Notes: generated by a model not told the origin, from the sequence alone. DNA of 64,000 nucleotides from Heptranchias perlo (GCF_035084215.1 NW_027139328.1:248001-312000); one strand, 5' to 3'; positions 15,501 to 64,000 are shown, counted from the stretch's first letter. Program-made: numbers and translations.

Positions 15501-18500
15501 TCCCTGTCCTGTATTATCAGTGCCCCCCCTTTCCCTGTGCTGTATTATCAGTGCCCCCCCTTTCCCTGTGCTGTATTATCAGTGCCCCCCCTTTCCCTGT
15601 CCTGTATTATCAGTGCCCCCCCTTTCTCAGTCCTGTATTATCAGTGCCCCCCCTTTCCCTGTGCTGTATTATCAGTGCCCCCCCTTTCCCTGTCCTGTAT
15701 TATCAGTGCCCCCCCTTTCCCTGTCCTGTATTATCAGTGCCCCCCCTTTCTCTGTCCTGTATTATCAGTGCCCCCCCTTTCTCTGTGCTGTATTATCAGT
15801 GCCCCCCCTTTCCCTGTGCTGTATTATCAGTGCCCCCCCTTTCCCTGTCCTGTATTATCAGTGCCCCCCCTTTCCCTGTGCTGTATTATCAGTGCCCCCC
15901 CTTTCCCTGTGCTGTATTATCAGTGCCCCCCCTTTCCCTGTGCTGTATTATCAGTGCCCCCCCTTTCCCAGTGCTGTATTATCAGTGCCCCCCCTTTCTC
16001 TGTCCTGTATTATCAGTGCCCCCCCTTTCTCAGTCCTGTATTATCAGTGCCCCCCCTTCCCTGTGCTGTATTATCAGTGCCCCCCCTTTCTCAGTCCTGT
16101 ATTATCAGTGCCCCCCCTTTCCCTGTGCTGTATTATCAGTGCCCCCCCCCCTTTCCCTGTGCTGTATTATCAGTGCCCCCCCCCTTTCCCTGTGCTGTAT
16201 TATCAGTGCCCCCCCCCTTTCCCTGTCCTGTATTATCAGTGCCCCCCCCCTTTCCCTGTGCTGTATTATCAGTGCCCCCCCCCTTTCCCTGTCCTGTATT
16301 ATCAGTGCCCCCCCCCTTTCCCTGTGCTGTATTATCAGTGCCCCCCCTTTCCCTGTCCTGTATTATCAGTGCCCCCCCTTTCTCTGTGCTGTATTATCAG
16401 TGCCCCCCCTTTCTCAGTCCTGTATTATCAGTGCCCCCCTTTCTCTGTGCTGTATTATCAGTGCCCCCCCTTTCTCAGTCCTGTATTATCAGTGCCCCCC
16501 CTTTCCCTGTGCTGTATTATCAGTGCCCCCCTTTCTCTGTCCTGTATTATCAGTGCCCCCCCTTTCTCTGTGCTGTATTATCAGTGCCCCCCCTTTCCCT
16601 GTGCTGTATTATCAGTGCCCCCCTTTCTCTGTGCTGTATTATCAGTGCCCCCCCTTTCCCTGTCCTGTATTATCAGTGCCCCCCTTTCCCTGTCCTGTAT
16701 TATCAGTGCCCCCCCTTTCTCTGTGCTGTATTATCAGTGCCCCCCCTTTCTCTGTGCTGTATTATCAGTGCCCCCCCTTTCTCTGTGCTGTATTATCAGT
16801 GCCCCCCCTTTCTCTGTGCTGTATTATCAGTGCCCCCCCTTTCTCTGTGCTGTATTATCAGTGCCCCCCTTTCCCTGTGCTGTATTATCAGTGCCCCCCC
16901 TTTCTCTGTGCTGTATTATCAGTGCCCCCCTTTCTCTGTGCTGTATTATCAGTGCCCCCCCTTTCTCTGTGCTGTATTATCAGTGCCCCCCTTTCTCTGT
17001 GCTGTATTATCAGTGCCCCCCCTTTCTCTGTGCTGTATTATCAGTGCCCCCCCTTTCTCTGTGCTGTTTTATCAGTGCCCCCCTTTCTCTGTCCTGTATT
17101 ATCAGTGCCCCCCCCTTTCTCTGTCCTGTATTATCAGAGCCCCCCCCTTTCCCTGTCCTGTATTATCAGTGCCCCCCCTTTCCCTGTCCTGTATTATCAG
17201 TGCCCCCCCTTTCTCTGTGCTGTATTATCAGTGCCCCCCCTTTCTCTGTCCTGTATTATCAGTGCCCCCCTTTCTCTGTGCTGTATTATCAGTGCCCCCC
17301 CTTTCTCTGTGCTGTATTATCAGTGCCCCCCCTTTCTCTGTGCTGTATTATCAGTGCCCCCCCTTTCTCTGTGCTGTATTATCAGTGCCCCCCCTTTCTC
17401 TGTCCTGTATTATCAGTGCCCCCCCTTTCTCTGTCCTGTATTATCAGTGCCCCCCCTTTCTCTGTGCTGTATTATCAGTGCCCCCCCTTTCTCTGTGCTG
17501 TATTATCAGTGCCCCCCTTTCTCTGTCCTGTATTATCAGTGCCCCCCCCTTTCTCTGTGCTGTATTATCAGTGCCCCCCCTTTCTCTGTGCTGTGTTATC
17601 AGTGCCCCCCCTTTCTCAGTCCTGTATTATCAGTGCCCCCCTTTCCCTGTGCTGTATTATCAGTGCCCCCCCCTTTCTCTGTGCTGTATTATCAGTGCCC
17701 CCCCTTTCTCTGTGCTGTATTATCAGTGCCCCCCTTTCCCTGTGCTGTATTATCAGTGCCCCCCCCTTTCTCTGTGCTGTATTATCAGTGCCCCCCCTTT
17801 CTCTGTGCTGTATTATCAGTGCCCCCCCCTTTCTCTGTGCTGTATTATCAGTGCCCCCCCCTTTCCCTGTCCTGTATTATCAGTGCCCCCCCTTTCTCTG
17901 TGCTGTATTATCAGTGCCCCCCCTTTCCCTGTGCTGTATTATCAGTGCCCCCCCTTTCTCTGCTGTATTATCAGTGCCCCCCCTTTCCCTGTGCTGTATT
18001 ATCAGTGCCCCCCCTTTCCCTGTGCTGTATTATCAGTGCCCCCCCTTTCTCTGTGCTGTATTATCAGTGCCCCCCCTTTCCCTGTGCTGTATTATCAGTG
18101 CCCCCCCTTTCTCTGTGCTGTATTATCAGTGCCCCCCCTTTCTCTGCTGTATTATCAGTGCCCCCCCTTTCCCTGTGCTGTATTATCAGTGCCCCCCCTT
18201 TCTCTGTGCTGTATTATCAGTGCCCCCCCTTTCCCTGTGCTGTATTATCAGTGCCCCCCCTTTCCCTGTCCTGTATTATCAGTGCCCCCCCTTTCTCTGC
18301 TGTATTATCAGTGCCCCCCCTTTCTCAGTGCTGTATTATCAGTGCCCCCCTTTCTCAGTCCTGTATTATCAGTGCCCCCCTTTCTCTGTCCTGTATTATC
18401 AGTGCCCCCCCTTTCTCAGTCCTGTATTATCAGTGCCCCCCCTTTCTCTGTCCTGTATTATCAGTGCCCCCCCTTTCCCTGTGCTGTATTATCAGTGCCC

Positions 18501-21500
18501 CCCCTTTCCCTGTGCTGTATTATCAGTGCCCCCCTTTCTCTGTCCTGTATTATCAGTGCCCCCCCTTTCTCTGTCCTGTATTATCAGTGCCCCCCCTTTC
18601 TCTGTCCTGTATTATCAGTGCCCCCCTTCTCTGTGCTGTATTATCAGTGCCCCCCCTTTCTCTGTCCTGTATTATCAGTGCCCCCCCTTCTCTGTGCTGT
18701 ATTATCAGTGCCCCCCCTTTCTCTGTGCTGTATTATCAGTGCCCCCCTTTCTCTGTGCTGTATTATCAGTGCCCCCCCTTTCTCTGTGCTGTATTATCAG
18801 TGCCCCCCCCCTTTCTCTGTGCTGTATTATCAGTGCCCCCCCTTTCTCTGTGCTGTATTATCAGTGCCCCCCTTTCTCTGTGCTGTATTATCAGTGCCCC
18901 CCCTTTCTCTGTGCTGTATTATCAGTGCCCCCCCTTTCTCTGTGCTGTATTATCAGTGCCCCCCCCCTTTCTCTGTCCTGTATTATCAGTGCCCCCCCTT
19001 TCTCTGTGCTGTATTATCAGTGCCCCCCTTTCTCTGTGCTGTATTATCAGTGCCCCCCCTTTCTCTGTGCTGTATTATCAGTGCCCCCCTTTCTCTGTGC
19101 TGTATTATCAGTGCCCCCCCTTTCCCTGTGCTGTATTATCAGTGCCCCCCCTTTCTCTGTGCTGTATTATCAGTGCCCCCCCCTTTCTCTGTGCTGTATT
19201 ATCAGTGCCCCCCCTTTCTCTGTCCTGTATTATCAGTGCCCCCCTTCTCTGTGCTGTATTATCAGTGCCCCCCCTTTCTCTGTGCTGTATTATCAGTGCC
19301 CCCCCCTTTCTCTGTGCTGTATTATCAGTGCCCCCCTTTCTCTGTGCTGTATTATCAGTGCCCCCCTTCTCTGTGCTGTATTATCAGTGCCCCCCCTTTC
19401 CCTGTGCTGTATTATCAGTGCCCCCCCTTTCTCTGTGCTGTATTATCAGTGCCCCCCCTTTCTCTGTCCTGTATTATCAGTGCCCCCCCTTCTCTGTGCT
19501 GTATTATCAGTGCCCCCCCTTTCTCTGTGCTGTATTATCAGTGCCCCCCCTTTCTCTGTCCTGTATTATCAGTGCCCCCCCTTTCTCTGTGCTGTATTAT
19601 CAGTGCCCCCCCTTTCTCTGTGCTGTATTATCAGTGCCCCCCGTTTCTCAGTGCTGTATTATCAGTGCCCCCCCTTTCCCCGTGCTGTATTATCAGTGCC
19701 CCCCCTTTCCCTGTGCTGTATTATCAGTGCCCCCCTTTCTCTGCTGTATTATCAGTGCCCCCCCTTTCTCTGTGCTGTATTATCAGTGCCCCCCCTCTCT
19801 CTGTGCTGTATTATCAGTGCCCCCCTTTCTCTGTGCTGTATTATCAGTGCCCCCCCTTTCTCTGTGCTGTATTATCAGTGCCCCCCCTTTCTCTGTCCTG
19901 TATTATCAGTGCCCCCCCTTTCTCTGTGCTGTATTATCAGTGCCCCCCCTTTCCCTGTGCTGTATTATCAGTGCCCCCCCCTTTCTCTGTGCTGTATTAT
20001 CAGTGCCCCCCCTTTCTCTGTGCTGTATTATCAGTGCCCCCCCTTTCTCTGTGCTGTATTATCAGTGCCCCCCCTTTCTCTGTGCTGTATTATCAGTGCC
20101 CCCCCTTTCTCTGTGCTGTATTATCAGTGCCCCCCCTTTCTCTGTCCTGTATTATCAGTGCCCCCCCCTTTCTCTGTGCTGTATTATCAGTGCCCCCCCT
20201 TTCTCTGTGCTGTATTATCAGTGCCCCCCCTTTCTCTGTCCTGTATTATCAGTGCCCCCCCCTTTCTCTGTGCTGTATTATCAGTGCCCCCCCTTTCTCT
20301 GTGCTGTATTATCAGTGCCCCCCCTTTCTCAGTCCTGTATTATCAGTGCCCCCCCCTTTCCCCGTGCTGTATGATCAGTGCCCCCCCTTTCTCTGTGCTG
20401 TATTATCAGTGCCCCCCTTTCTCTGTGCTGTATTATCAGTGCCCCCCCTTTCCCCGTGCTGTATGATCAGTGCCCCCCCTTTCTCTGTGCTGTATTATCA
20501 GTGCCCCCCCTTTCTCTGTCCTGTATTATCAGTGCCCCCCCTTTCTCTGTCCTGTATTATCAGTGCCCCCCCTTTCTCTGTGCTGTATTATCAGTGCCCC
20601 CCCTTTCTCTGTGCTGTATTATCAGTGCCCCCCCTTTCTCTGTCCTGTATTATCAGTGCCCCCCCTTTCTCTGTCCTGTATTATCAGTGCCCCCCCTTTC
20701 TCTGTGCTGTATTATCAGTGCCCCCCTTTCTCTGTGCTGTATTATCAGTGCCCCCCTTTCTCTGTGCTGTATTATCAGTGCCCCCCTTTCTCTGTGCTGT
20801 ATTATCAGTGCCCCCCCTTTCTCTGTCCTGTATTATCAGTGCCCCCCCTTTCTCTGTGCTGTATTATCAGTGCCCCCCCTTTCTCTGTCCTGTATTATCA
20901 GTGCCCCCCCTTTCTCTGTGCTGTATTATCAGTGCCCCCCTTTCTCTGTGCTGTATTATCAGTGCCCCCCCTTTCTCTGTGCTGTATTATCAGTGCCCCC
21001 CGTTTCTCAGTGCTGTATTATCAGTGCCCCCCCTTTCTCAGTGCTGTATTATCAGTGCCCCCCCTTTCCTTGTGCTGTATTATCAGTGCCCCCCCTTTCC
21101 CTGTGCTGTATTATCAGTGCCCCCCCTTTCTCTGCTGTATTATCAGTGCCCCCCCTTTCTCTGCTGTATTATCAGTGCCCCCCCTTTCTCTGCTGTATTA
21201 TCAGTGCCCCCCCTTTCTCTGTGCTGTATTATCAGTGCCCCCCCTTTCCCTGTGCTGTATTATCAGTGCCCCCCCTTTCTCTGCTGTATTATCAGTGCCC
21301 CCCCTTTCTCTGTGCTGTATTATCAGTGCCCCCCCTTTCTCTGTCCTGTATTATCAGTGCCCCCCCTTTCTCTGCTGTATTATCAGTGCTCCCCCCTATC
21401 TCTGTGCTGTATTATCAGTGCCCCCCCTTTCTCTGTGCTGTATTATCAGTGCCCCCCTTTCCCTGTCCTGTATTATCAGTGCCCCCCCTTTCTCAGTGCT

Positions 21501-21950
21501 GTATTATCAGTGCCCCCCCTTTCCTTGTGCTGTATTATCAGTGCCCCCCCTTTCCCTGTGCTGTATTATCAGTGCCCCCCTTTCTCTGCTGTATTATCAG
21601 TGCCCCCCCTTTCTCTGTGCTGTATTATCAGTGCCCCCCCTTTCCCTGTCCTGTATTATCAGTGCCCCCCCTTTCTCTGTCCTGTATTATCAGTGCCCCC
21701 CCTTTCTCTGCTGTATTATCAGTGCTCCCCCCTATCTCTGTGCTGTATTATCAGTGCCCCCCCTTTCCCTGTGCTGTATTATCAGTGCCCCCCCTTTCTC
21801 TGTGCTGTATTATCAGTGCCCCCCTTTCTCTGTGCTGTATTATCAGTGCCCCCCCTTTCTCTGTGCTGTATTATCAGTGCCCCCCCTTTCTCTGTGCTGT
21901 ATTATCAGTGCCCCCCCTTTCTCTGTGCTGTATTATCAGTGCCCCCTTTT
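3573..21950. repeat. Giant minisatellite, ~31 bp unit (CTGTATTATCAGTGCCCCCCCTTTCTCTGTG), roughly 600 copies
   Basis: Uninterrupted 18.4-kb tandem array; variation is in C-run length and a few variant positions. Confidence 0.99.
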
Positions 21951-23351
21951 TCCATGGGAGGGAGCCAGCCCGCTGCTGCTGCCTCCAGTTTCTACTCTGA
22001 AATGGTGTCAGGTTTCTGTTCCCCATGCCTCTCTCCAGGAGTCAGTTCGATCTGTCAATGTGCTGAACTTCCTCACATCAGTCCTGGATTTGCTTTTTAT
22101 TAGTTTTAACCTCTGATCTCGTCCTGCTGTCGCAATTTAATTTCAAGTTTTATTTCCCACATTTCCATTTCTTTAACGATCTCACACGTCTCTGAGATCA
22201 CCTCTCTGGACTTTCCTCACCACTCAGTCCTTTGGCCCGAGAGATCAGCCTGCACTTTCTCAACTGCTTCTGTCTCAACCATCCGATTTGGATTTCTCAA
22301 GCTGTGATCTCCCCAGAGCACTCGACTGTTTGATCGCAGCCGCTACCCCACTGCTTTGGCCGGTGCAGTTCACCATCCTGTTGGCTCTGCATAGGTTGGA
22401 CATGGTGAATGTTCAGTCTACTGAGACTCTTCGACCGTCTCTGAAGACGGATGAAGATTTCACTGGAGGCGATCACTCGTTCATTGTGAAAATCAATTGC
22501 AATGTTTTGTATTTGCTAAAACCCAACTGGCAGTGTTGCAGCAGAAAGTGTCTGTGTGCCGATCATTATATCCAGTGTGTTGGGTATACAGGTCAGTGAA
22601 TCAAGGGATTATAGCAAATACTAATTACTTAACACTCTTATTGTGAAATGCTGCATTGAGCATAAAAAGTACTAACTTTATTTATTTCCAATGTAATAAG
22701 TGTTAATAGGAATTCAGTGATTGAATTGATAGGGGTGTCTGTCTATAAAAGATTGTATTAAATGTATTTATGCCTATTTATTACCAGGACCTATCTATCC
22801 TAATCTTGCAATGTAACCACGCCTCTGTAACTTGAGTTTCTCTGTGTCCGCCGCTCCGGACCTGAGCCCATTGCTTCTATTTCCCTCTTTTTTATCATCT
22901 TTCCTCTTCACCCCTCCTGGGCCCCTCTCTCCTGTCCTTTCATATCTCCCCTCTCGAGTACTCTGCCCCCTCCCAAATCCCTATCCCAACCCTTCAGCAT
23001 TCCTCGACCTTCCTACTCTCCTGTCGTCGTCCCAGGCTTGATTCCCTCTTAGATAATCCCACAGCGTCCCTCTGTGCCTCTCTTGGCATCTTCCGAAGGG
23101 CCCATCCCGGCACTCGTCGCTGCCTCCTTACGAGCAGCAACCCCGACTGTCCCACCCCACTCTCTCACCGACCTTCCCACCCAGTGTGCCTGCTGGGGGC
23201 TAATCTTGCCCATCTCCTTCCTGTCCCACTCACCCCTCCCAGCGCTGACCCTGTGGATTCTGTCAGTGGATCAGCCATGATCTGATTGAATGGCAGAGCA
23301 GGCTCGAGGGGCCGATTGGCCTACTCCTGCTCCTATTTCTTATGTTCTTGT

Positions 23352-37307: not shown

Positions 37308-40300
37308 CATAAGAACATAAGAACATAAGAAATTGGAGCAGGAGTAGGCCAATCGGCCCCTCGAGCCTGCTCCGCCATTCAATAAGATCATGGCTGATCT
37401 GATCCCAACCACAAATCTAAAGAACACAAGAAGTCGGAGCAGGACCCGGCCACATAGCCCCTGGGCCCTCTCCGCCACCCACAGGGCATTGACCGATCCG
37501 AACTCAGCTTCATGTCCAATTTCCTGCCCGCTCCCCATAACCCCTAATTCCCTTTACTTCTAGGAAACTGTCTATTTCTGTTTTAAATTTATCTAATGAT
37601 GTAGCTTCCACAGCTTCCTGGGGCAGCAAATTCCACAGGCCGACCACCCTCTGAGTGAAGAAGTTTCTCCTCATCTCAGTTTTGAAAGAGCAGCCCCTTA
37701 TTCTAAGATTATGCCCCCTAGTTCTAGTTTCACCCATCTTTGGGAACATCCTTACTGCATCCACCCGATCAAGACCCTTCACAATCTTATATGTTTCAAT
37801 AAGATCGCCTCTCATTCTTCTGAACTCCAATGAGTAGAGTCCCAATCTACTCAACCTCTCCTCATATGTCCGCCCCCTCATCCCCGGGATTAACCGAGTG
37901 AACCTTCTTTGTACTGCCTCGAGAGCAAGTATGTCTTTTCTTAAGTATGGAGACCAAAACTGTATGCAGTATTCCAGGTGCGGTCTCACCAATACCTTAT
38001 ATAACTGCAGCAATACCTCCTTGTTTTTATATTCTATCCCCCTAGCAATAAAAGCCAACATTCCATTGGCTTTCTTGATCACCTGCTGCACCTGCATACC
38101 AACTTTTTGATTTTCTTGCACGAGGACCCCCAGATCCCTTTGTACTGCAGTACTTTCCAGTCTCTCGCCATTAAGAAAATAACTTGCTCTCTGATTTTTC
38201 CTGCCAAAGTGCATAACCTCACATTTTCCAATATTATATTGCATCTGCCAAATCTCCGCCCACTCACCCAGCCTGTCCATATCCCCTTGCAGGTTTTTTA
38301 TGTCCTCCTCACTCTCTACTTTCCCTCCCATCTTTGTATCATCTGCAAATTTTGATATGTTGCACTCGGTCCCCTCCTCCAAATCGTTAATATAGATTGT
38401 AAAGAGTTGGGGACCCAGCACCGACCCCTGTGGAACACCACTGGTTACTGGTTGCCAGTCCGAAAATGAACCATTTATCCCAACTCTCTGCTTCCTGTTT
38501 GATAACCAATCCTCCACCCATGCCAGAATATTACCCCCAATCCCGTGATTTTTTATCTTAAGTAATAATCTTTTATGTGGCACCTTGTCGAATGCCTTCT
38601 GGAAGTCTAAATACACTACCTCCACTGGTTCCCCTTTATCCACCCTATACGTTATATCCTCGAAGAACTCAAGCAAATTTGTCAGACATGACTTCCCCTT
38701 CATAAAGCCATGCTGACTTTGTCCTATTAAATTATGCTTATCTAAATGTTCCGTTACTGTCTCCTTAATAATAGACTCCAAAATTTTACCCACCACAGAT
38801 GTTAAGCTAACTGGCCTATAATTTCCAGCCTTCTGCCTACTACCCTTTTTAAATAACGGTGTTACATTAGCAGTTTTCCAATCTGCCGGGACCTCTCCTG
38901 AGTCCAGGGAATTTTGGAAAACTATCACCAAAGCATCCACAATCCCCACTGCCACTTCCCTCAAGACCCTAGGATCGAAGCCATCAGGTCCAGGGGATTT
39001 ATCCGCCTTGAGTCCCATTATTTTACTGAGTACCATCTCTTGAGTGATTTTAATCGTATTTAGCTCCTCCCCCCCGAGAGTCCCCTGTTTGTCCAGTGTT
39101 GGGATATTCTTAGTGTCCTCTACTGTAAAGACTGAAACAAAATATTTGTTCAGCATTTTTGCCATCTCCATGTTTCCCACCATTAATTTCCCGGTCTCAT
39201 CCTCTAAGGGACCTATGTTTGCCTTAGCCACCCTTTTTCTTTTTATATAACTATAGAAACTCTTGCTATCTGTTTTTATATTTTTTGCTAATTTCTTTTC
39301 ATAATCTAACTTCCCTTTCTTAATCAATCCTTTAGTTACTTTTTGCTGTCTTTTGAAGAATTCCCAATCTTCTATCCTCCCACTAAGTTTGGCTACCTTA
39401 TATGTCCTTGTTTTTAGTCGGATACTATCCTTGATTTCTTTACTTAGCCACGGGTGGCTGTCATTTCTTTTACACCCTTTTTTCCTCAGTGGAATATATT
39501 TATTTTGAAAGTTGTAAAATAACTCCCTAAATGAACACCACTGCTCATGTACCGTCTTACCCTTTAATCTATTTTCCCAGTCCACTTTAATCAATTCCGC
39601 TCTCATACCATCATAGTCTCCTTTATTCAAGCTCAGTACGCTTGTTTGAGAATCAACCTTCTCACCCTCTAATTGGATATGGAATTCAACCATGTTGTGG
39701 TCGCTCGTTCCAAGGGGATCCTTAACTAGGACATTATTAATTAATCCTGACTCATTACACAGGACCAGGTCCAAGGTTGCCTGCCCCCTTGTAGGATCAG
39801 TTACATACTGCTCAAGAAATCCATCCCTGATGCACTCAATGAACTCGTCCTCAAGGCTGCTCTGCCCAATTTGATTTGTCCAGTTAATATGATAATTAAA
39901 ATCCCCCATAATTATGGCTGTTCCCTTATTACATGCCCCGACTATCTCCTGATTAATACTTCTTCCAGCAGAGTTGCAACTATTAGGAGGCCTATATACT
40001 ACGCCCACTAATGTTTTTTTTCCCTTATTATTCCTTATCTCCACCCAAACTGTTTCATTATCTTGATGCTTTGTCCCAATATCATTTCTCTGTATTACAG
40101 TGATTCCTTCCTTTATTAACATAGCCACCCCACCTCCCCTTCCTTCCTGCCTGTCCTTCCTGATTGTTAAATACCCTGGCATATTTAATTCCCAGTCGTT
40201 GTCACCCTGCAGCCATGTTTCTGTAATGGCCACAAGATCATACCCATACGTAGTTATTTGTGCCGTTAACTCGTCCATTTTATTACGAATGCTACGTGCA

Positions 40301-41214
40301 TTCAGATAAAGAACTTTCAAATCTGTTTTGTGACGCTTAGTTCCTGCTTTTTCCTTTTTTAACACTTTACCTATTACTCCATACCTTCTGTCCCTTCCTG
40401 TTACGCTTTCCTCTCTCTCCCTGCTCAGGTTCCCAACCCCCTGCCACTTTAGTTTAAACCCTCCCCAACAGCACTAGCAAACACTCCTCCTAGGACAGCG
40501 GTCCCGGCCCTGCCCAGGTGCAGACCGTCCGGTTTGTACTGGTCCCACCTCCCCCAGAACCGTTTCCAGTGTCCCAGGAATTTGAATCCCTCCCCCTTGC
40601 ACCATTCCTCTAGCCACGTATTCATTTGAAATATCCTCCTATTTCTACTCTGACTAGCACGTGGCACTGGCAGCAATCCTGAGATTACTACCTTTGAGGT
40701 CCTATTTTTTAATTTACCTCCTAACTCCCTATATTCTGCTTTTAGGACCTAATCCCCTTTTTTACCTATATCGTTGGTGCCTATGTGCACCACGACAGCT
40801 GGCTGTTCGCCCTCCCCCTCCAAAATGTTCTGTAGCCGCTCCGAGACATCCTTGATCCTTGCACCAGGGAGGCAACACACCATCCTGGAGTCTCGGTTGC
40901 GGCCGCAGAAACGCCTGTCTATTCCCCTTACAATTGAGTCCCCTATCACTATAGCTCTGCCACTCTTTTTCCTCCCAGCCTGTGCAGCAGAGCTACCCGT
41001 GGTGCCAGGAAGTTGGCTGCTGCTGCCTTCCCCTGATAAGTCATCCCCCCCAACAGCATCCAAAGTGGCATATCTGTTTGAGAGGGGGATGGACACAGGG
41101 GACCCCTGCACTACCTGCCTGCATCTCTTACTCTTCCTGGTGGTCACCCATTCACTTCCTGCCTGTATACCCTTTACCTGCGGTGTGACCAACTCGCTAA
41201 ACGTGCTATCCACG
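37308..41214 (-). mobile_element. Young CR1 LINE, 5'-truncated in ORF1, ORF2 intact
   Basis: Tail (ATAAGAAC)n; ORF2 37510..40365; ORF1 remnant 40449-41214 with one frameshift. The host reading frame rejoins across it (GGAGCATAAGA|GTAAGGAG). Confidence 0.95.
37510..40365 (-). CDS. CR1 ORF2p: APE endonuclease plus reverse transcriptase, 951 aa, uninterrupted
   Basis: YLNARS, ITETW, GDFN, SDH (EN); [29 protein letters not shown] (RT). The true start codon is uncertain. Confidence 0.95.
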   Translation of the reverse strand: MLKKEKAGTKRHKTDLKVLYLNARSIRNKMDELTAQITTYGYDLVAITETWLQGDNDWELNMPGYLTIRKDRQEGRGGGVAMLIKEGITVIQRNDIGTKHQDNETVWVEIRNNKGKKTLVGVVYRPPNSCNSAGRSINQEIVGACNKGTAIIMGDFNYHINWTNQIGQSSLEDEFIECIRDGFLEQYVTDPTRGQATLDLVLCNESGLINNVLVKDPLGTSDHNMVEFHIQLEGEKVDSQTSVLSLNKGDYDGMRAELIKVDWENRLKGKTVHEQWCSFRELFYNFQNKYIPLRKKGCKRNDSHPWLSKEIKDSIRLKTRTYKVAKLSGRIEDWEFFKRQQKVTKGLIKKGKLDYEKKLAKNIKTDSKSFYSYIKRKRVAKANIGPLEDETGKLMVGNMEMAKMLNKYFVSVFTVEDTKNIPTLDKQGTLGGEELNTIKITQEMVLSKIMGLKADKSPGPDGFDPRVLREVAVGIVDALVIVFQNSLDSGEVPADWKTANVTPLFKKGSRQKAGNYRPVSLTSVVGKILESIIKETVTEHLDKHNLIGQSQHGFMKGKSCLTNLLEFFEDITYRVDKGEPVEVVYLDFQKAFDKVPHKRLLLKIKNHGIGGNILAWVEDWLSNRKQRVGINGSFSDWQPVTSGVPQGSVLGPQLFTIYINDLEEGTECNISKFADDTKMGGKVESEEDIKNLQGDMDRLGEWAEIWQMQYNIGKCEVMHFGRKNQRASYFLNGERLESTAVQRDLGVLVQENQKVGMQVQQVIKKANGMLAFIARGIEYKNKEVLLQLYKVLVRPHLEYCIQFWSPYLRKDILALEAVQRRFTRLIPGMRGRTYEERLSRLGLYSLEFRRMRGDLIETYKIVKGLDRVDAVRMFPKMGETRTRGHNLRIRGCSFKTEMRRNFFTQRVVGLWNLLPQEAVEATSLDKFKTEIDSFLEVKGIRGYGERAGNWT

Positions 41215-51908: not shown

Positions 51909-52169
51909 GCTCTCACTCTCTCCGGTATTTCTTTACCTCAATGACCCCGATCCCTGGTTTTCCGGAGTTTGTTGTTGTCGGTTATGTGGACGAGGCCCAG
52001 TTTGTTGAATATAACAGCGAGCGGAGGACGATGATCCCGCGGCAGCGCTGGATGGAGGAGCGTGAGGGGCCCGAGTACTGGGAACGGGAGACACGGGCTG
52101 TGCAGAGCTCGGAACAGATCGGGAAAGATGCGATTGAGATCCTCTGGAAACGGACCAACCAATCGGGCA
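51909..52169 (+). CDS. UAA: MHC class I exon 2 (alpha1 domain)
   Basis: TTTCAG| acceptor; GSHSLRYFFTSMTPIPGFPEFVVVGYVDEAQF...GPEYWERET...LWKRTNQSG; 261 bp; donor A|GTGAGT. Confidence 0.96.
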
Positions 52170-55494: not shown

Positions 55495-55767
55495 GAATCC
55501 ACACGGTCCAGATGATGTACGGCTGTGAGCTGGGGGATGATGGGACCACGAGAGGATTCGTTCAGTTCGCCTGGGACGGGGAGGATTTGATCAACTTCGA
55601 TAAGGATCAGATGGTGTGGGTAACACCGGTACAGTGGGGAGAGATCACCAAGAACAAGTGGGACCAGAACAAGGCCAGGAACCAAGGGGTGAAGGGATAC
55701 CTGGAGGGGACCTGCATCGAGTGGCTGAGGAAATACCTCGAGTACGGAAAGAGGGAACTGAGGGCCG
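55495..55767 (+). CDS. UAA: MHC class I exon 3 (alpha2 domain)
   Basis: GACAG| acceptor; IHTVQMMYGCEL...AWDGEDLINFD...EITKNKWD...GYLEGTCIEWLRKYLEYG; 273 bp; donor G|GTGAGT. Confidence 0.97.
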
Positions 55768-56428
55768 GTGAGTGAGGGGGGAATGAGAGTCGGTGAGTGA
55801 GGGGGGAGTGAGAGTCGGTGAGTGAGGGGGGGACTGAGAGTCGGTGAGTGAGGGGGGGACTGAGAGTCGGTGAGTGAGGGGGGGAGTGAGAGTCGGTGAG
55901 TGAGGGGGGAGTGAGAGTCGGTGAGTGAGGGGGGGGAGTGAGAGTCGGTGAGTGAGGGGGGGGAGTGAGAGTCAGTGAGTGAGGGGGGAGTGAGAGTCGG
56001 TGAGTGAGGGGGGAGTGAGAGTCGGTGAGTGAGGGGGGGACTGAGAGTCGGTGAGTGAGGGGGGGAGCGAGAGTCGGTGAGTGAGGGGGGGACTGAGAGT
56101 CGGTGAGTGAGGGAGGGGGAGTGAGAGTCAGTGAGTGAGGGGGGAGTGAGAGTCGGTGAGTGAGGGGGGAGTGAGAGTCGGTGAGTGAGGGGGGGGAGTG
56201 AGAGTCGGTGAGTGAGGGGGGGGAGTGAGAGTCGGTGAGTGAGGGGGGGAGTGAGAGTCGGTGAGTGAGGGGGGGAGTGAGAGTCGGTGAGTGAGGGGGG
56301 GAGTGAGAGTCGGTGAGTGAGGGGGGGAGTGAGAGTCGGTGAGTGAGGGGGGGAGCGAGAGTCGGTGAGTGAGGGGGGAGTGAGAGTCGGGGAGTGAGGG
56401 GGGAGTGAGTCTGTGAGTGAGGGGGGGA
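55768..56428. repeat. Minisatellite, 25-27 bp unit (GTGAGTGAGGGGGGAGTGAGAGTCG) starting at the intron-3 donor, ~25 copies
   Basis: Direct tandem array. Confidence 0.96.
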
Positions 56429-56430
56429 AT

Positions 56431-56635
56431 GGGGTCTAATCCCCAGTTTAAAGGGGTTTGTCCCGTTCCCTGGGGTCTAATCCCCAGTTTAAAGGGGTTT
56501 GTCCCGTTCCCTGGGGTCTAATCCCCAGTTTAAAGGGGTTTGTACCGTTCCCTGGGGTCTAATCCCCAGTTTAAAGGGGTTTGTCCCGTTCCCAGGGGTC
56601 TAATCCCCAGTTTAAAGGGGTTTGTACCGTTCCCT
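56431..56635. repeat. Minisatellite, 41 bp unit (GGGGTCTAATCCCCAGTTTAAAGGGGTTTGTCCCGTTCCCT), 5 copies
   Basis: Direct tandem array. Confidence 0.96.
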
Positions 56636-56674
56636 GTCTCACACTGACTCGGCTCTGATCTGTTTTACTCTCAG

Positions 56675-56950
56675 TTACTCCCCAAGTGTTTCTTTCTGTG
56701 GACAAGGCCTCAGACACTAAACCGGCCCAACTCTCCTGCCTGGTCACGGGGTTTTACCCTCGAGATATCGAACTCACCCTCCTGAGAAATGGACGGCCGA
56801 TCTCAGACACTGATTCCACTGGCATCCTGCCCAACCACGATGGCACCTACCAGATCAAGAGATGGGTTGAGATCGGGCCCGAGGACGGAGCCACCTACTC
56901 CTGTCAGGTGGATCACAGCAGCAAAGCAGGAGTGGAGACCCGAGACTGGG
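56675..56950 (+). CDS. UAA: MHC class I exon 4 (alpha3 C1-set Ig domain)
   Basis: CTCTCAG| acceptor; LSCLVTGFYPRDI...LPNHDGTYQ...YSCQVDHSS...DW; 276 bp; donor G|GTAAGA. Confidence 0.96.
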
Positions 56951-56999
56951 GTAAGAGGATCAGTGAGTGCAGGGGGAGAGTCTGAGGCTGAGGATTAAA

Positions 57000-58984: not shown

Positions 58985-60342
58985 TTTTTTTTTATTCGTT
59001 CACGGGATGTGGGCGTCGCTGGTGAGGCCAGCATTTATTGCCCATCCCTAATTGCCCTTGAGAAGGTGGTGGTGAGCCACCTTCTTGAACCGCTGCAGTC
59101 CGTGTGGTGACGGTTCTCCCACAGTGCTGTTCGGAAGGGAGTTCCAGGATTTTGTCCCATCGACAATGAAGGAACGGCGATTTATTTCCAAGTCGGGATG
59201 GTGTGTGACTTGGAGGGGAACGTGCAGGTGGTGTTGTTCCCATGTGCCTGCTGCTCTTGTCCTTCTAGGTGGTAGAGGTCGCGGGTTTGGGAGGTGCTGT
59301 CGAAGAAGCCTTGGCGAGTTGCTGCAGTGCATCCTGTGGATGGTACACACTGCAGCCACAGTGCGCCGGTGGTGAAGGGAGTGAATGTTTAGGGTGGTGG
59401 ATGGGGTGCCAATCAAGCGGGCTGCTTTGTCCTGGATGGTGTCGAGCTTCTTGAGTGTTGTTGGAGATGCACTCATCCAGGCAAGTGGAGAATATTCCAT
59501 CACACTCCTGACTTGTGCCTTGTAGATGGTGGAAAGGCTTTGGGGAGTCAGGAGGTGAGTCACTCGCCGCAGAATACCCAGCCTCTGACCTGCTCTCGTA
59601 GCCACAGTATTTATATGGCTGGTCCAGTTAAGTTTCTGGTCAATGGTGACCCCCAGGATGTTGATGGTGGGGGATTCGGCGATGGTAATGCCGTTGAATG
59701 TCAAGGGGAGGTGGTTAGACTCTCTCTTGTTGGAGATGGTCATTGCCTGGCACTTATCTGGCGCGAATGTTACTTGCCACTTATGAGCCCAAGCCTGGAT
59801 GTTGTCCAGGTCTTGCTGCATACGGGCTTGGACTGCGTCATTATTTGAGGGGTTGCGAATGGAACTGAACACTGTGCAGTCATCAGCGAACATCCCCATT
59901 TCTGACCTTATGATGGAGGGAAGGTCATTGATGAAGCAGCTGAAGATGGTTGGGCCTAGTACACTGCCCTGAGGAACTCCTGCAGCAATGTCCTGGGGCT
60001 GAGATGATTGGCCTCCAACAACCACTACCATCTTCCTTTGTGCCTGGTATGACTTCAGTCACTGGAGAGTTTTCCCCCTGATTCCCATTGACTTCAATTT
60101 TACTAGGGCTCCTTGGTGCCACACTCGGTCAAATGCTGCCTTGATGTCAAGGGCAGTCACTCTCACCTCACCTCTGGAATTCAGCTCTTTTGTCCATGTT
60201 TGGACCAAGGCTGTAATGAGGTGTGGAGCCGAGTGGTCCTGGCGGAACCCAAACTGAGCATCGGTGAGCAGGTTATTGGTGAGTAAGTGCCGCTTGATAG
60301 CACTGTCGACGACACCTTCCATCACTTTGCTGATGATTGAGA
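58985..60342 (-). mobile_element. Poly(A)-tailed non-LTR retrotransposon (CR1/L2/Jockey-group RT), interrupted at its 5' side by the Penelope-like element
   Basis: [28 protein letters not shown] and FADD motifs; one in-frame stop at ~60059; T-run at 58985-58993. Confidence 0.88.
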
Positions 60343-60431
60343 TGATGTGGAGATGCCGGTGATGGACTGGGGTGGACAAATGTAAGGAATCTTACAACAC
60401 CAGGTTATAGTCCAACAAATTTATTTTAAAA

Positions 60432-60468
60432 TCACAAGCTTTCGGAGATTATCCCCTTCGTCAGATGA
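60432..60468 (-). ncRNA. Minimal type I hammerhead ribozyme (PLE type), minus-strand copy
   Basis: Exact reverse complement of 61027-61063. Confidence 0.75.
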
Positions 60469-61026
60469 ATGAGTGAAAAGGTTCTCAAATCGCATATCTT
60501 ATACTATGCTGGGACAGCATCACACCAATCAAAAGGTGTCGTTGTTATTCAAACATGGCAGTCACGGAGAACAGCACGTCCCAGTACACTGGATATACAT
60601 TGTGTCAATTACACAGACAGGCAGAAAGAAACCCAAAATGGCAGAGAGAGAGAGAGAATATTAAAAAACATAATTTTTTTCCCCCTTTTTGCTGGTGGGG
60701 TTACGTGTAGCGTGACATGAACCCAAGATCCCAGTTGAGGCCATCCTCATGGGTGCGGAACCGGGATCTTGGGTTCATGTCACGCTACACGTAACCCCAC
60801 CAGCAAAAAGGGGGAAAAAAATTATGTTTTTTAATATTCTCTCTCTCTCTCTGCCATTTTGGGTTTCTTTCTGCCTGTCTGTGTAATTGACACAATGTAT
60901 ATCCAGTGTACTGGGACGTGCTGTTCTCCGTGACTGGCCTGTTTGAATAACAACGACACCTTTTGATTGGTGTGATGCTGTCCCAGCATAGTATAAGATA
61001 TGCGATTTGAGAACCTTTTCACTCAT

Positions 61027-61063
61027 TCATCTGACGAAGGGGATAATCTCCGAAAGCTTGTGA
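61027..61063 (+). ncRNA. Minimal type I hammerhead ribozyme (PLE type)
   Basis: UCAU-CUGACGA-A-GGGG AUAAU CUCC-GAA-AGCU-U-GUGA: core CUGAnGA/GAAA, stem II GGGG/CUCC, palindromic AGCU stem III, stem I UCAU/GUGA. Confidence 0.78.
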
Positions 61064-61112
61064 TTTTAAAATAAATTTGTTGGACTATAACCTGGTGTTG
61101 TAAGATTCCTTA

Positions 61113-64000
61113 CATAGAATCATAGAATCATAGAAGTTACAACATGGAAACAGGCCCTTCGGCCCAACATGTTCATGTCGCCCAGTTTATACCACTAAGC
61201 TAGTCCCAATTGCCTGCACTTGGCCCATATCCCTCTATACCCATCTTACCCATGTAACTGTCCAAATGCTTTTTAAAAGACAAAATTGTACCCGCCTCTA
61301 CTACTGCCTCTGGCAGCTCGTTCCAGACACTCACCACCCTTTGAGTGAAAAAATTGCCCCTCTGGACCCTTTTGTATCTCTCCCCTCTCACCTTAAATCT
61401 ATGCCCCCTCGTTATAGACTCCCCTACCTTTGGGAAAAGATTTTGACTATCGACCTTATCTGTGCCCCTCATTATTTTATAGACTTCTATAAGATCACCC
61501 CTTAACCTCCTACTCTCCAGGGAAAAAAGTCCCAGTCTGTCTAACCTCTCCCTGTAAGTCAAACCATCAAGTCCCGGTAGCATCCTAGTAAATCTTTTCT
61601 GCACTCTACCAGCCTTGCCCTTCACTTTATAAGGAATGTGCTTACCCTGAACCCTGGTTAACACACTTTTGAAAGCCTCCCACTTACCAGACGTCCCTTT
61701 GCCTGCCAACAGACTCTCCCAATCAACTTCTGAAAGTTCCTGTCTAATACCATCAAAATTGGCCTTTCCCCAATTTAGAATTTTAACTTTTGGGCCAGAC
61801 CTATCCTTCTCCATAGCTATCTTAAAACTAATGGAATTATGATCACTTGTCCCAAAGTGATCCCTCACCAACACTTCTGTCACCTGCCCTTCCTTATTTC
61901 CCAAGAGGAGGTCAAGTTTTGCCCCCTCTCTAGTCGGGCCATCCACATACTGAATGAGAAATTCCTCCTGAATACACTCAACAAATTTCTCTCCATCCAA
62001 GCCCCTAATGCTATGGCTGTCCCAGTCAATGTTGGGAAAGTTAAAGTCCCCTACTATTACCACCCTATTTTTCTTGCAGCAGTCTGTAATCTCCTTACAT
62101 ATTTGCTCCTCAATTTCCCGTTGACTATTTGGGGGTCTGTAGTACAATCCTATCAAAGTGATCTCTCCCTTCTTATTTTTCAGTTCTACCCATATGGACT
62201 CAGTGGGCGAACCCTCGGATATATCCCCTCTCACTACCGCCGTGATGTTCTCCCTAATCAAGAACGCAACTCCCCCTCCTCTCTTACCTCCTGCTCTATC
62301 TTTCCTATAGCATCTGTACCCTGGAACATTGAGCTGCCAGTCCTGCCCCTCCCTCATCCATGTTTCAGTAATAGCTATAACATCCCAGTCCCATGTACCC
62401 ATCCATGCCCTGAGTTCATCTGCCTTGCCCATCAGACTTCTTGCATTGAAATAAATGCAGTTTAATCTAGACTTCCCTTGGTCTTTGCCCTGCTTTCTCA
62501 GACCATCTGTCCGGTCATGTTCTGTACACTCTCCCTTACTGCCTTTTGTTTCTGTCACCATTTTATTTCCCACTGACTTCCTGCATCGGTTCCCATCCCC
62601 CTGCCACATTAGTTTAAACCCTCCCCAACAGCACTGGCAAACACTCCCCCTAGGACATTGGTTCCAGTCCTGCCCAGATGCAGACCGTCCAATTTGTACT
62701 GGTCCCACCTCCCCCAGAACCGGTTCCAATGGCCCAGGAATTTGAATCCCTCCCTCTTGCACCATCTCTCAAGCCACGTATTCATCTTAGCTATCCTGTC
62801 ATTCCTACTCTGACTAACCCGTGGCACTGGTAGCAATCCTGAGATTACTACCTTTGAGGTCCTACTCTTTAGTTTAATTCCTAACTCCCTAAATTCAGCT
62901 TGTGGGACCTCATCCTGTTTTTTACCTATATCGTTGGTGCCTATACGCACCACGACAACTGGCTGTTCACCCTCCCCCTCCAGAATGTCCTGCAGCCGCT
63001 CCGAGACATCCTTGACCCTTGCACCAGGGAGGCAACATACCATCCTGGAGTCTCGGTTGCGTCCGCAGAAACGCCTGTCTATTCCCCTTACAATCGAGTC
63101 CCCTATCACTATAGCTCTGCCACTCTTTTTCCTGCCCTCCTGTGCAGCAGAGCCAGCCACGGTGCCATGAACCTGGCCACTGCCACCTTCCCCTGGTGAG
63201 CCATCTCCCCCAACAGTATCCAAAACGGTATACCTGTTTTGGAGGGAGATGACCGCAGGGGACCCCTGCACTGCCTTCCTACTCTTCCTCTGTCTGTTGG
63301 TCACCCATTCACTATCTCCCTCAGTAATTTTTATCTGCGGTGTGACCAACTCACTGAACGTGCTATCCACGACTTTCTCAGCATCGCGGATGCTCCAAAG
63401 TGAGTCCATCCGCAGCTCCAGAGCCGTCAAGCGGTCAAACAATAGCTGCAGCTGGACACACTTCCCGCAGGTGAAGGAATCAGGGATACAGGAAGGAGCC
63501 CTGAATTCCCACATCCCACAAGAGGAACATGACACGGCTCTGGGATCTCCTGCCATGACTTAACCCTTAAGTTAGCTTAACAACAACTGCAATGTCAAGA
63601 GAAAAAAAAGGAAAGAAAAACTACTTACCACTCCCTTTAAGGAGTTTACTCCTTTAAATTGTTCTCAATTTAGAGAATGTTAACTACACTAGGGACCTTG
63701 ATTCACTAAAAAATAAACGCTACTTCCTATAAGACCTGCAGACCTTCCCTTTCCTTTTACTTCAGTTACTGTCGATAAGTAGAAATACTCACCTGAACCT
63801 ACTCACCAATCAGGTGCCTCCCCTGTGTCGCGTCCCGATCTGATTCCTGACGTCACTTCGAACTCGGTCGCAGCTCCGCTCGGCTCCTCTCAGCTGTTCT
63901 CAGCGCTCTGAAATCCCGCCTTTTATCGGACGCTCCCTCAAATTAAATGAATCCCACCAATTTCACTTCAATTAAAAAGGTATACTCAAGGGCCCTTGCT
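61113..64000 (-). mobile_element. CR1 LINE with intact ORF1 and an ORF2 lacking the RT domain
   Basis: (CATAGAAT)n tail; ORF 61200..62765 joins EN directly to the C-terminal domain; ORF1 62609..63556; 5'UTR runs toward the window end. Confidence 0.92.
62609..63556 (-). CDS. CR1 ORF1p (zinc-finger plus SGNH esterase-like), 315 aa
   Basis: CSSC..CGKC, VIGDSIVRG, IGTND and DGLHL motifs. Confidence 0.88.
   Translation of the reverse strand: MAGDPRAVSCSSCGMWEFRAPSCIPDSFTCGKCVQLQLLFDRLTALELRMDSLWSIRDAEKVVDSTFSELVTPQIKITEGDSEWVTNRQRKSRKAVQGSPAVISLQNRYTVLDTVGGDGSPGEGGSGQVHGTVAGSAAQEGRKKSGRAIVIGDSIVRGIDRRFCGRNRDSRMVCCLPGARVKDVSERLQDILEGEGEQPVVVVRIGTNDIGKKQDEVPQAEFRELGIKLKSRTSKVVISGLLPVPRVSQSRNDRIAKMNTWLERWCKREGFKFLGHWNRFWGRWDQYKLDGLHLGRTGTNVLGGVFASAVGEGLN

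What the first reader, a model, noticed from the sequence alone, without database searches (positions are those of the whole stretch)
60343..61115. 357-bp near-perfect Penelope palindrome carrying twin hammerhead ribozymes inside the presumed MHC intron 4
Seen: arms 60380-60736 and 60759-61115 (about 3 mismatches, 22-nt loop). Each arm has CUGACGA..GAAA with palindromic stem III (AGCU, predicted cleavage after CUU) followed by AATAAA, and the centre is the last codons of a PLE ORF. Established: PLE pseudo-LTRs carry minimal hammerheads thought to act as dimers, and PLEs can insert as inverted ends. Inference: transcription from either strand yields one ribozyme plus its full antisense, a self-masking hairpin and long dsRNA in an immune gene's pre-mRNA, and a cruciform-prone DNA site.
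Basis: partly seen in the sequence, partly recalled or inferred. Interest (0 to 1): 0.72.

Follow-up and report, generated by a model that had tools for sequence, protein, structure and literature searches.

The report
Ordinary mirror-image Penelope insertion, MHC intron
This 0.75-kb mirror-image sequence is real, but it is one of roughly a thousand (extrapolated) back-to-back insertions of a young Penelope-type jumping gene; it sits in an intron of one of 11 near-identical immune genes, is absent from the other 10 and is likely a passenger, while its sibling copies suggest that the element copies its RNA from both cut DNA strands.

Summary
Observation confirmed: 357-bp arms, 3 mismatches, 22-nt spacer, one minimal hammerhead per arm on opposite strands, ORF end at the centre, intron between MHC class I alpha3 and transmembrane exons. 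It is the published Penelope insertion form: a tailed 5'-truncated copy plus a tailless inverted copy. An 11-bp target duplication encloses it and a CR1 sitting at its tailless end; a paralogous MHC gene shows the empty site. The family is young and abundant (2,835 exact ribozyme copies, an intact 891-aa RT/GIY-YIG ORF); 36 of 80 sampled sites are head-to-head. The insertion is absent from 10 of 10 paralogous introns, so a host role is unlikely. Self-masking is a sound folding prediction, not shown in vivo; the two ribozymes cannot share one RNA. Of more interest is the family pattern: 33 of 34 simple inverted units have exactly one tailed and one tailless end, and 4 of 21 tailless solo copies carry a tiny inverted tail stub, which favours priming from both nicks at two RNA start sites. 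The scan noted such shark palindromes before (37 notes, at least 8 genomes).

The parts
60343..60760 (-). 5'-truncated Penelope copy with tail (last 19 codons of ORF, 3' UTR/pLTR, hammerhead, 37-nt tail)
   Evidence: 97-99% identical over 418 nt to 39 other top genomic copies; siblings carry RT/GIY-YIG ORF upstream
60343..60379 (-). 37-nt Penelope tail, on this arm only; in a natural tandem it is the stretch just upstream of the ORF start codon
   Evidence: L118 tandem junction; end classes in 80 sites
60759..61115 (+). Inverted, tailless, 5'-truncated second copy (last 11 codons, pLTR, hammerhead)
60737..60760 (.). Spacer (extra ORF codons of the left copy) and 3-nt microhomology at the inversion junction
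   Evidence: junction unique in the assembly
61027..61063 (+). Minimal type I hammerhead motif, sense to the MHC pre-mRNA; predicted cut between 61059 and 61060
   Evidence: activity untested
60432..60468 (-). Minimal type I hammerhead motif on the other strand
61070..61075 (+). AATAAA inside the pLTR; lies 82 nt upstream of the next unit's ATG in a tandem, so not shown to be a poly(A) signal
60332..60342 (+). Left copy of the 11-bp target-site duplication; the right copy lies just outside the window (G000:C1161:312124-312134)
   Evidence: single copy at the empty site in paralog L216
61116..64000 (-). Young CR1-type LINE (3.0 kb, 5'-truncated, about 1.5-kb internal deletion; runs 123 bp beyond the window) between the tailless arm and the right TSD, 3-nt microhomology at each end
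58985..60342 (-). Older host LINE (ORF2 RT region) that the Penelope interrupts; its other half resumes after the right TSD
56676..56951 (+). MHC class I alpha3 exon (upstream boundary of the host intron)
   Evidence: Pfam C1-set E 1.3e-17; splice sites seen
55495..55770 (+). MHC class I alpha2 exon
   Evidence: Pfam MHC_I E 7.7e-29
51911..52168 (+). MHC class I alpha1 exon (segment tested)
   Evidence: Pfam MHC_I E 3.6e-25

Best explanation
It is a single, young, doubly 5'-truncated insertion of an endonuclease-bearing Penelope-like element in the standard head-to-head form, likely a passenger in the MHC intron and likely made by priming reverse transcription from both cut DNA strands. Shown: family membership, one tailed and one tailless arm, target duplication, empty site. 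Inferred steps: the GIY-YIG domain nicks both strands about 11 bp apart; one 3' end primes at the tail site next to the ORF start codon, the other 37 nt upstream, on RNA from one source element; both cDNAs stop early and join through a 3-nt microhomology; a CR1 later inserts at the tailless end. If the intron is transcribed, the antisense arm is made first on either strand, so the ribozyme would be trapped in a 357-bp duplex (predicted), a plausible ADAR substrate with no selected role.
For: 2,731 first-look candidates at 97-99% for the top 40; 2,835 exact ribozyme copies; 11,126 exact terminal 31-mers. Intact 891-aa ORF with RVT_1 (E 1.5e-10), GIY-YIG (E 1.6e-4, 22.3 bits against a cut-off of 22.6) and a C-x4-C-x2-C linker. 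36 of 80 sites on C1 are simple head-to-head units; 33 of 36 have a TSD (control 36 of 1,332 mismatched pairs); 33 of 34 non-tandem units have one tailed and one tailless end, none two tails (p 2e-9 against 50%). Tailless ends also occur alone with a TSD, and 4 of 21 such copies have a 7-12-nt inverted tail stub right after the TSD (chance 0.5% each); a tailless arm cannot template that stub. Arms of one unit differ 0.74% against 2.1% between loci, with 120 shared and 13 discordant minor polymorphisms: one source. Empty site in L216; 10 of 10 paralogous introns have no Penelope end. Two in vitro RT start sites flank the tail and both strands are cut and extended (PMC11167929, parts 1-2 of 4 read).
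Against: Near-symmetric junctions are in excess (13 of 36 within 30 nt against 3.3 by permutation; 6 of 27 against 1.3 without the shortest arms), as fold-back copying predicts. No tailless stub was found in 10 tailed solo copies. PMC11167929 saw no difference in start site between strands in vitro. This locus has no TSD directly at its right end; a later CR1 insertion exactly there is an assumed coincidence. No listed contig bridged the central junction. The 80 sites were chosen by an exact ribozyme match on one contig.
Confidence: 0.78

Rival explanations
1. Same passenger insertion, but the second arm is a fold-back copy: one priming event, the truncated cDNA snaps back on a short microhomology, copies itself, and the endonuclease trims the tail off the second end.
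For: Excess of near-symmetric junctions, including this locus (25-nt offset, 3-nt overlap); arms share source variants; self-priming proposed in PMC3846280 (Discussion read) and EN-mediated resolution in PMC8557442 (passages).
Against: Inverted tail stubs on tailless copies (4 of 21); tailless solo ends with TSDs (21 of 26); either arm can be the longer one, whereas a fold-back copy of the tailed arm cannot exceed its template.
Confidence: 0.15
2. The CR1 and the palindrome arrived together: a read-through transcript of a CR1 lying next to an older palindrome was reverse transcribed by the Penelope protein from the tail site, or the CR1 RNA was captured at the free tailless end during integration.
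For: One TSD encloses both elements and the CR1 tail abuts the canonical tailless end to the base; CR1 and Penelope are both about 99% identical to siblings.
Against: Central and CR1 junctions are each unique in the assembly; the CR1 is truncated at least 230 nt short of the family 5' region and none of 20 siblings shares its deletion; both CR1 ends show the microhomology expected of an ordinary later insertion.
Confidence: 0.1
3. The hairpin or its ribozyme regulates this MHC class I gene (intronic cleavage, premature polyadenylation giving a secreted form, dsRNA signalling).
For: The + ribozyme and an AATAAA are sense to the pre-mRNA, upstream of the transmembrane exon. Penelope repeats are heavily A-to-I edited in lizard (PMC5625713, passage).
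Against: Absent from 10 of 10 near-identical paralogs; predicted fully masked; minimal hammerheads show no monomer activity and low dimer activity (PMC4209133, parts 1-2 read); two more AATAAA occur in the same intron.
Confidence: 0.04
4. Read fold-back or assembly artefact.
For: Small contig (333 kb) rich in repeats; no listed Logan contig bridged the junction (tables cut, uninformative).
Against: The inversion stops at the family's tailless end, flanks differ, the host LINE resumes in frame register after a TSD, the TM exon follows in the right orientation, and a paralog shows the empty site; arms differ at 3 sites.
Confidence: 0.02

Closest known systems
Endonuclease-positive Penelope-like elements with inverted pLTR, 30-40-bp tail and TSD (Pen2a_Av, PMC3846280; general scheme PMC8557442; D. 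virilis Penelope, PMC2377424)
   Same: Inverted 5'-truncated copy head-to-head, tail on one end only, TSD around the whole unit, short overlap at the junction, tandem needed for a full ORF
   Different: Both arms here are truncated almost equally, so the unit is a near-perfect 736-bp palindrome; a CR1 separates the right end from its TSD
Minimal type I hammerheads of metazoan PLEs (PMC4209133)
   Same: CUGANGA/GAAA core, extra unpaired base before stem II, 4-bp stem I, palindromic minimal stem III; that paper also notes dual motifs 100-700 bp apart on opposite strands
   Different: Stem II is 5 bp; predicted cut follows U; activity of this variant untested
Anolis Poseidon PAc (PMC11167929)
   Same: Element ends at two internal sites that flank the tail; ribozyme not at the element end
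   Different: Here the tail ends at the start codon and the ribozyme lies upstream of it, not in the ORF; the linker motif points to Neptune/Nematis rather than Poseidon; the two sites are used one per end
L1 twin priming (recalled, no call)
   Same: Inversion with TSD and junction microhomology made by two target-primed events
   Different: L1 arms cover non-overlapping parts of one RNA; here both arms repeat the same 357 nt

Membership tests
EN+ Penelope-like element | Single ORF with RT followed by GIY-YIG endonuclease | tested here: met
   In sibling L118, not at this truncated locus: 891 aa, RVT_1 E 1.5e-10; GIY-YIG E 1.6e-4, 0.3 bit under the curated cut-off; no NCBIfam hit
EN+ Penelope-like element | Partial tandems forming pLTRs; inverted 5'-truncated copy | tested here: met
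   L118, L080 tandems; 36 of 80 inverted units
EN+ Penelope-like element | 30-40-bp tail at one end | tested here: met
   37 nt on left arm only; 33 of 34 simple units alike
EN+ Penelope-like element | Target-site duplication around the unit | tested here: met
   11 bp, displaced by a CR1; empty site
EN+ Penelope-like element | RT groups with PLE/telomerase RTs in a tree | not tested
   No reference PLE proteins were fetched; PDB sequence search gave no relevant hit
Neptune (or Nematis) clade | CX2-5CxxC motif in the RT-EN linker (PMC8557442 passage) | tested here: met
   CHGNLCKTC in sibling ORFs; does not separate Neptune from Nematis
Neptune (or Nematis) clade | Phylogenetic placement | not tested
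   No tree built
Minimal type I hammerhead | Conserved core, stems I and II, extra base after A9, palindromic stem III | tested here: met
   the five commonest variants (166 of 216 copies) keep 4 of 4 stem I and 4-5 stem II pairs through one-sided changes
Minimal type I hammerhead | Match to an Rfam hammerhead model | tested here: not met
   No hit at E<=10; whether those models can detect minimal variants was not controlled
Minimal type I hammerhead | Self-cleavage as dimer | not testable with these tools
   No pile-up of genomic 5' ends at the predicted cut (0 of 81 at -53 to -59)
Non-LTR retrozyme | Head-to-tail tandem ribozyme repeats without ORF remains | tested here: not met
   Copies are head-to-head and carry the ORF end
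MITE or other non-autonomous palindromic element | The palindrome moves as a unit (same centre at many loci) | tested here: not met
   Central junction occurs once; junctions differ among units

The most novel reading that the evidence does not exclude
Penelope elements integrate by coordinated twin priming: the two nicks of one staggered cut are each assigned a different RNA start site, 37 nt apart, possibly on two RNAs held by a protein dimer and the ribozyme's palindromic stem III; this would explain the inverted pLTR, the one-sided tail and the TSD together, and this young shark-type family offers thousands of datable products plus an intact ORF to test it.
Probability: 0.5. Interest if true: 0.6.

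Novelty: new member of a known kind. Interest (0 to 1): 0.27.

Why it matters
As a locus it matters little: a copy-specific insertion useful as a marker among near-identical MHC class I genes. As a sample of its family it bears on an open question, how Penelope elements build inverted, one-tailed insertions (left open in PMC8557442 and PMC11167929). The strict tail/tailless pairing and the tail stubs give a sharp prediction for the existing in vitro system. On the extrapolated numbers (about 1,000 head-to-head units, about 170 long near-perfect palindromes) the family would also be a large source of intronic dsRNA.

Tried and rejected
Rfam: only chance miRNA/snoRNA hits caused by the hairpin, no hammerhead. 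Sequencing runs: no RNA holder listed; Logan contigs were swamped by repeat copies, no listed piece bridged the junction, tables were cut, so neither authenticity nor expression or editing could be read. Mobile CR1-Penelope chimera: junction patterns unique. A degenerate pattern for CR1 tails at tailless ends was malformed (it does not match this locus either), so its zero says nothing. CR1 as maker of the TSD: not testable, my stretches did not include the CR1 5' ends. Genomic trace of ribozyme cleavage: none at the predicted site. One versus two RNA templates: arm variants cannot decide. PDB search unhelpful; protein atlas unavailable. PMC5785218 (Lunse et al.) and PMC522041 (Pyatkov et al.) are not held; I saw them only as cited by others. 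No supplements were read; supplementary figures of PMC11167929 may bear on start-site use per strand. No complex or structure prediction was run.

Full report
Observation. The inverted repeat is as described: arms 60380-60736 and 60759-61115, 357 nt, 22 nt apart, the only long inverted repeat in 55-64 kb, with three mismatches. Each arm has CUGACGA, an extra A, a 5-bp stem II, GAAA and GCUU, on opposite strands. Alone, the motif folds into the hammerhead stems but is not more stable than shuffles, and Rfam finds no hammerhead. The centre reads as the last codons of an ORF on both arms.

Identity. The 418-nt minus-strand copy has 2,731 first-look candidates in the genome; the 40 scored are 97-100% identical. 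Upstream of that sequence, siblings encode an RT and a GIY-YIG-like domain. Locus L118 holds a natural tandem with an intact 891-aa ORF: RVT_1 E 1.5e-10, GIY-YIG E 1.6e-4, just under the curated cut-off, no NCBIfam hit, and a C-x4-C-x2-C linker that PMC8557442 (passages) ties to Neptune and Nematis. No tree was built. The 37 nt at 60343-60379 are the stretch just upstream of the start codon in that tandem, that is the Penelope tail. Exact counts: 2,835 copies of the ribozyme 34-mer and 11,126 of a terminal 31-mer shared with older subfamilies. That the host is a shark rests on recall of its repeats and on earlier AI notes, not on a test.

Anatomy of the site. The unit interrupts an older LINE ORF2. 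Its other half resumes 123 bp beyond the window, after a second copy of an 11-bp sequence found at 60332-60342. Between the right arm and that copy lies a 3.0-kb CR1, about 99% identical to siblings, 5'-truncated, with a 1.5-kb deletion that none of 20 siblings shares, and with 3-nt microhomology at both ends. The MHC class I exons are confirmed by Pfam and the transmembrane exon follows downstream. The alpha3 exon has 11 copies at 99-100% protein identity. I fetched all 10 others: none has a Penelope end in this intron; one (L216) has the host LINE uninterrupted with a single copy of the 11-mer, and nine lack the LINE. This is the empty site, and with the family-typical ends it argues against a fold-back artefact. 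Read-level proof was not obtained.

How common. Among the 29 closest siblings, 21 show an inverted arm within 1.5 kb. For a sample not selected for the tail, I took the first 100 listed ribozyme matches on contig C1, which form 80 sites. 36 of 80 are head-to-head units; the other 44 are single-arm or complex. 33 of 36 have a TSD (12-16 nt with my permissive measure that includes microhomology and one mismatch; control 36 of 1,332); the three without are two tandems and one odd unit. Six of 80 have arms of 350 nt or more and offsets of 30 nt or less. Scaling to 2,835 matches gives about 1,000 head-to-head units and about 170 comparable palindromes; this is an extrapolation from 118 Mb of one contig.

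How it was likely made. Leaving out two tandem complexes (L080, L118), 33 of 34 units have one tailed and one tailless end, one has two tailless ends (L074, no TSD, discordant markers) and none has two tails (p 2e-9). Among the 44 others, 26 end tailless and 18 tailed. Of 21 tailless ones with a TSD, 4 carry a 7-12-nt inverted piece of the tail directly after the TSD (chance 0.5% each); of 10 tailed ones none has the converse stub. A tailless arm cannot template tail sequence, so both target ends seem to prime on RNA, at two sites. This fits PMC11167929 (parts 1-2 of 4 read): both strands cut and extended, two start sites flanking the tail; but that paper saw no strand difference in start site. 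Arms within a unit come from one source (0.74% against 2.1%; 120 shared, 13 discordant polymorphisms), which cannot separate one RNA from two. Against pure twin priming, near-symmetric junctions are in excess (13 of 36 against 3.3 expected), as the self-priming idea of PMC3846280 (Discussion read) predicts. I put twin priming first and fold-back second; both may operate.

What it does. Folding 60301-61180 gives -714 kcal/mol, with the ribozyme paired to the other arm at probability 0.999. On either strand the antisense arm is transcribed first, so masking is expected. The two ribozymes never share a transcript. Minimal hammerheads were inactive as monomers and weak as dimers (PMC4209133, parts 1-2 of 4 read; PMC6765202 passages). 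Genomic 5' ends do not pile up at the predicted cut (0 of 81 at -53 to -59) but just upstream of the ribozyme (45 of 81 at -83 to -99, of which 11 are a diverged subfamily rather than truncations). Editing of such hairpins is plausible (lizard Penelope, PMC5625713 passage) and untested. With 10 of 10 paralogs lacking it, a selected host role is unlikely.

Known or new. Inverted pLTR, one-sided tail and TSD are described (PMC3846280, PMC8557442, PMC2377424 passages), as are opposite-strand ribozyme pairs (PMC4209133). The preprint 10.64898/2026.07.22.740005 (passages) concerns tandem retrozymes, which this is not. Searches for Penelope with twin priming, sharks and palindromes, tail/TSD mechanism and 2024-onward two-site initiation listed no paper whose title or abstract start states twin priming for PLEs; the library lacks most subscription journals. 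The scan has 37 similar notes in at least 8 genomes, none near this place; I looked only after forming my reading.

Verdict. Real, ordinary, a new member of a known kind. Interest 0.27, nearly all from the family-level mechanistic pattern and not from the MHC location.

Noticed in passing
G000 C526, C1050 (7 copies), C1057, C1654, C1161: Eleven MHC class I genes with alpha3 exons 99-100% identical; the alpha3-TM intron ranges from 774 to 7,843 bp through nested insertions, a ready marker series for the duplication history. Classical or non-classical lineage not determined.
   Followed up: partly
L118 (G000:C1:75172707-75180330): Inverted arm plus partial tandem plus intact 891-aa Penelope ORF; a candidate source element.
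   Followed up: partly
family-wide, L146-L215: 5' truncation hot spot at -83 to -99, just upstream of the ribozyme in a TCAYT-rich stretch, and none at the predicted cut; may mark the RNA 5' end.
   Followed up: partly
window 61116-64000 and 123 bp beyond: CR1 inserted to the base at the tailless Penelope end, inside the TSD; unexplained coincidence.
   Followed up: partly
L074 (G000:C1:16341524-16344582): The only unit with two tailless ends; no TSD and four discordant subfamily markers, possibly two events.
   Followed up: no
L216:4599-4984: In the empty-site paralog the host LINE is shorter on its 5' side and followed by a 193-bp repeat of upstream intron sequence.
   Followed up: no
window 37510-40473 (-): Uninterrupted 987-codon CR1-type ORF2.
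   Followed up: no
window about 4000-22000: 18-kb block with extreme, constant strand skew, probably a tandem satellite.
   Followed up: no
window 55750-56640: 26-bp and 41-bp minisatellites fill the alpha2-alpha3 intron.
   Followed up: no
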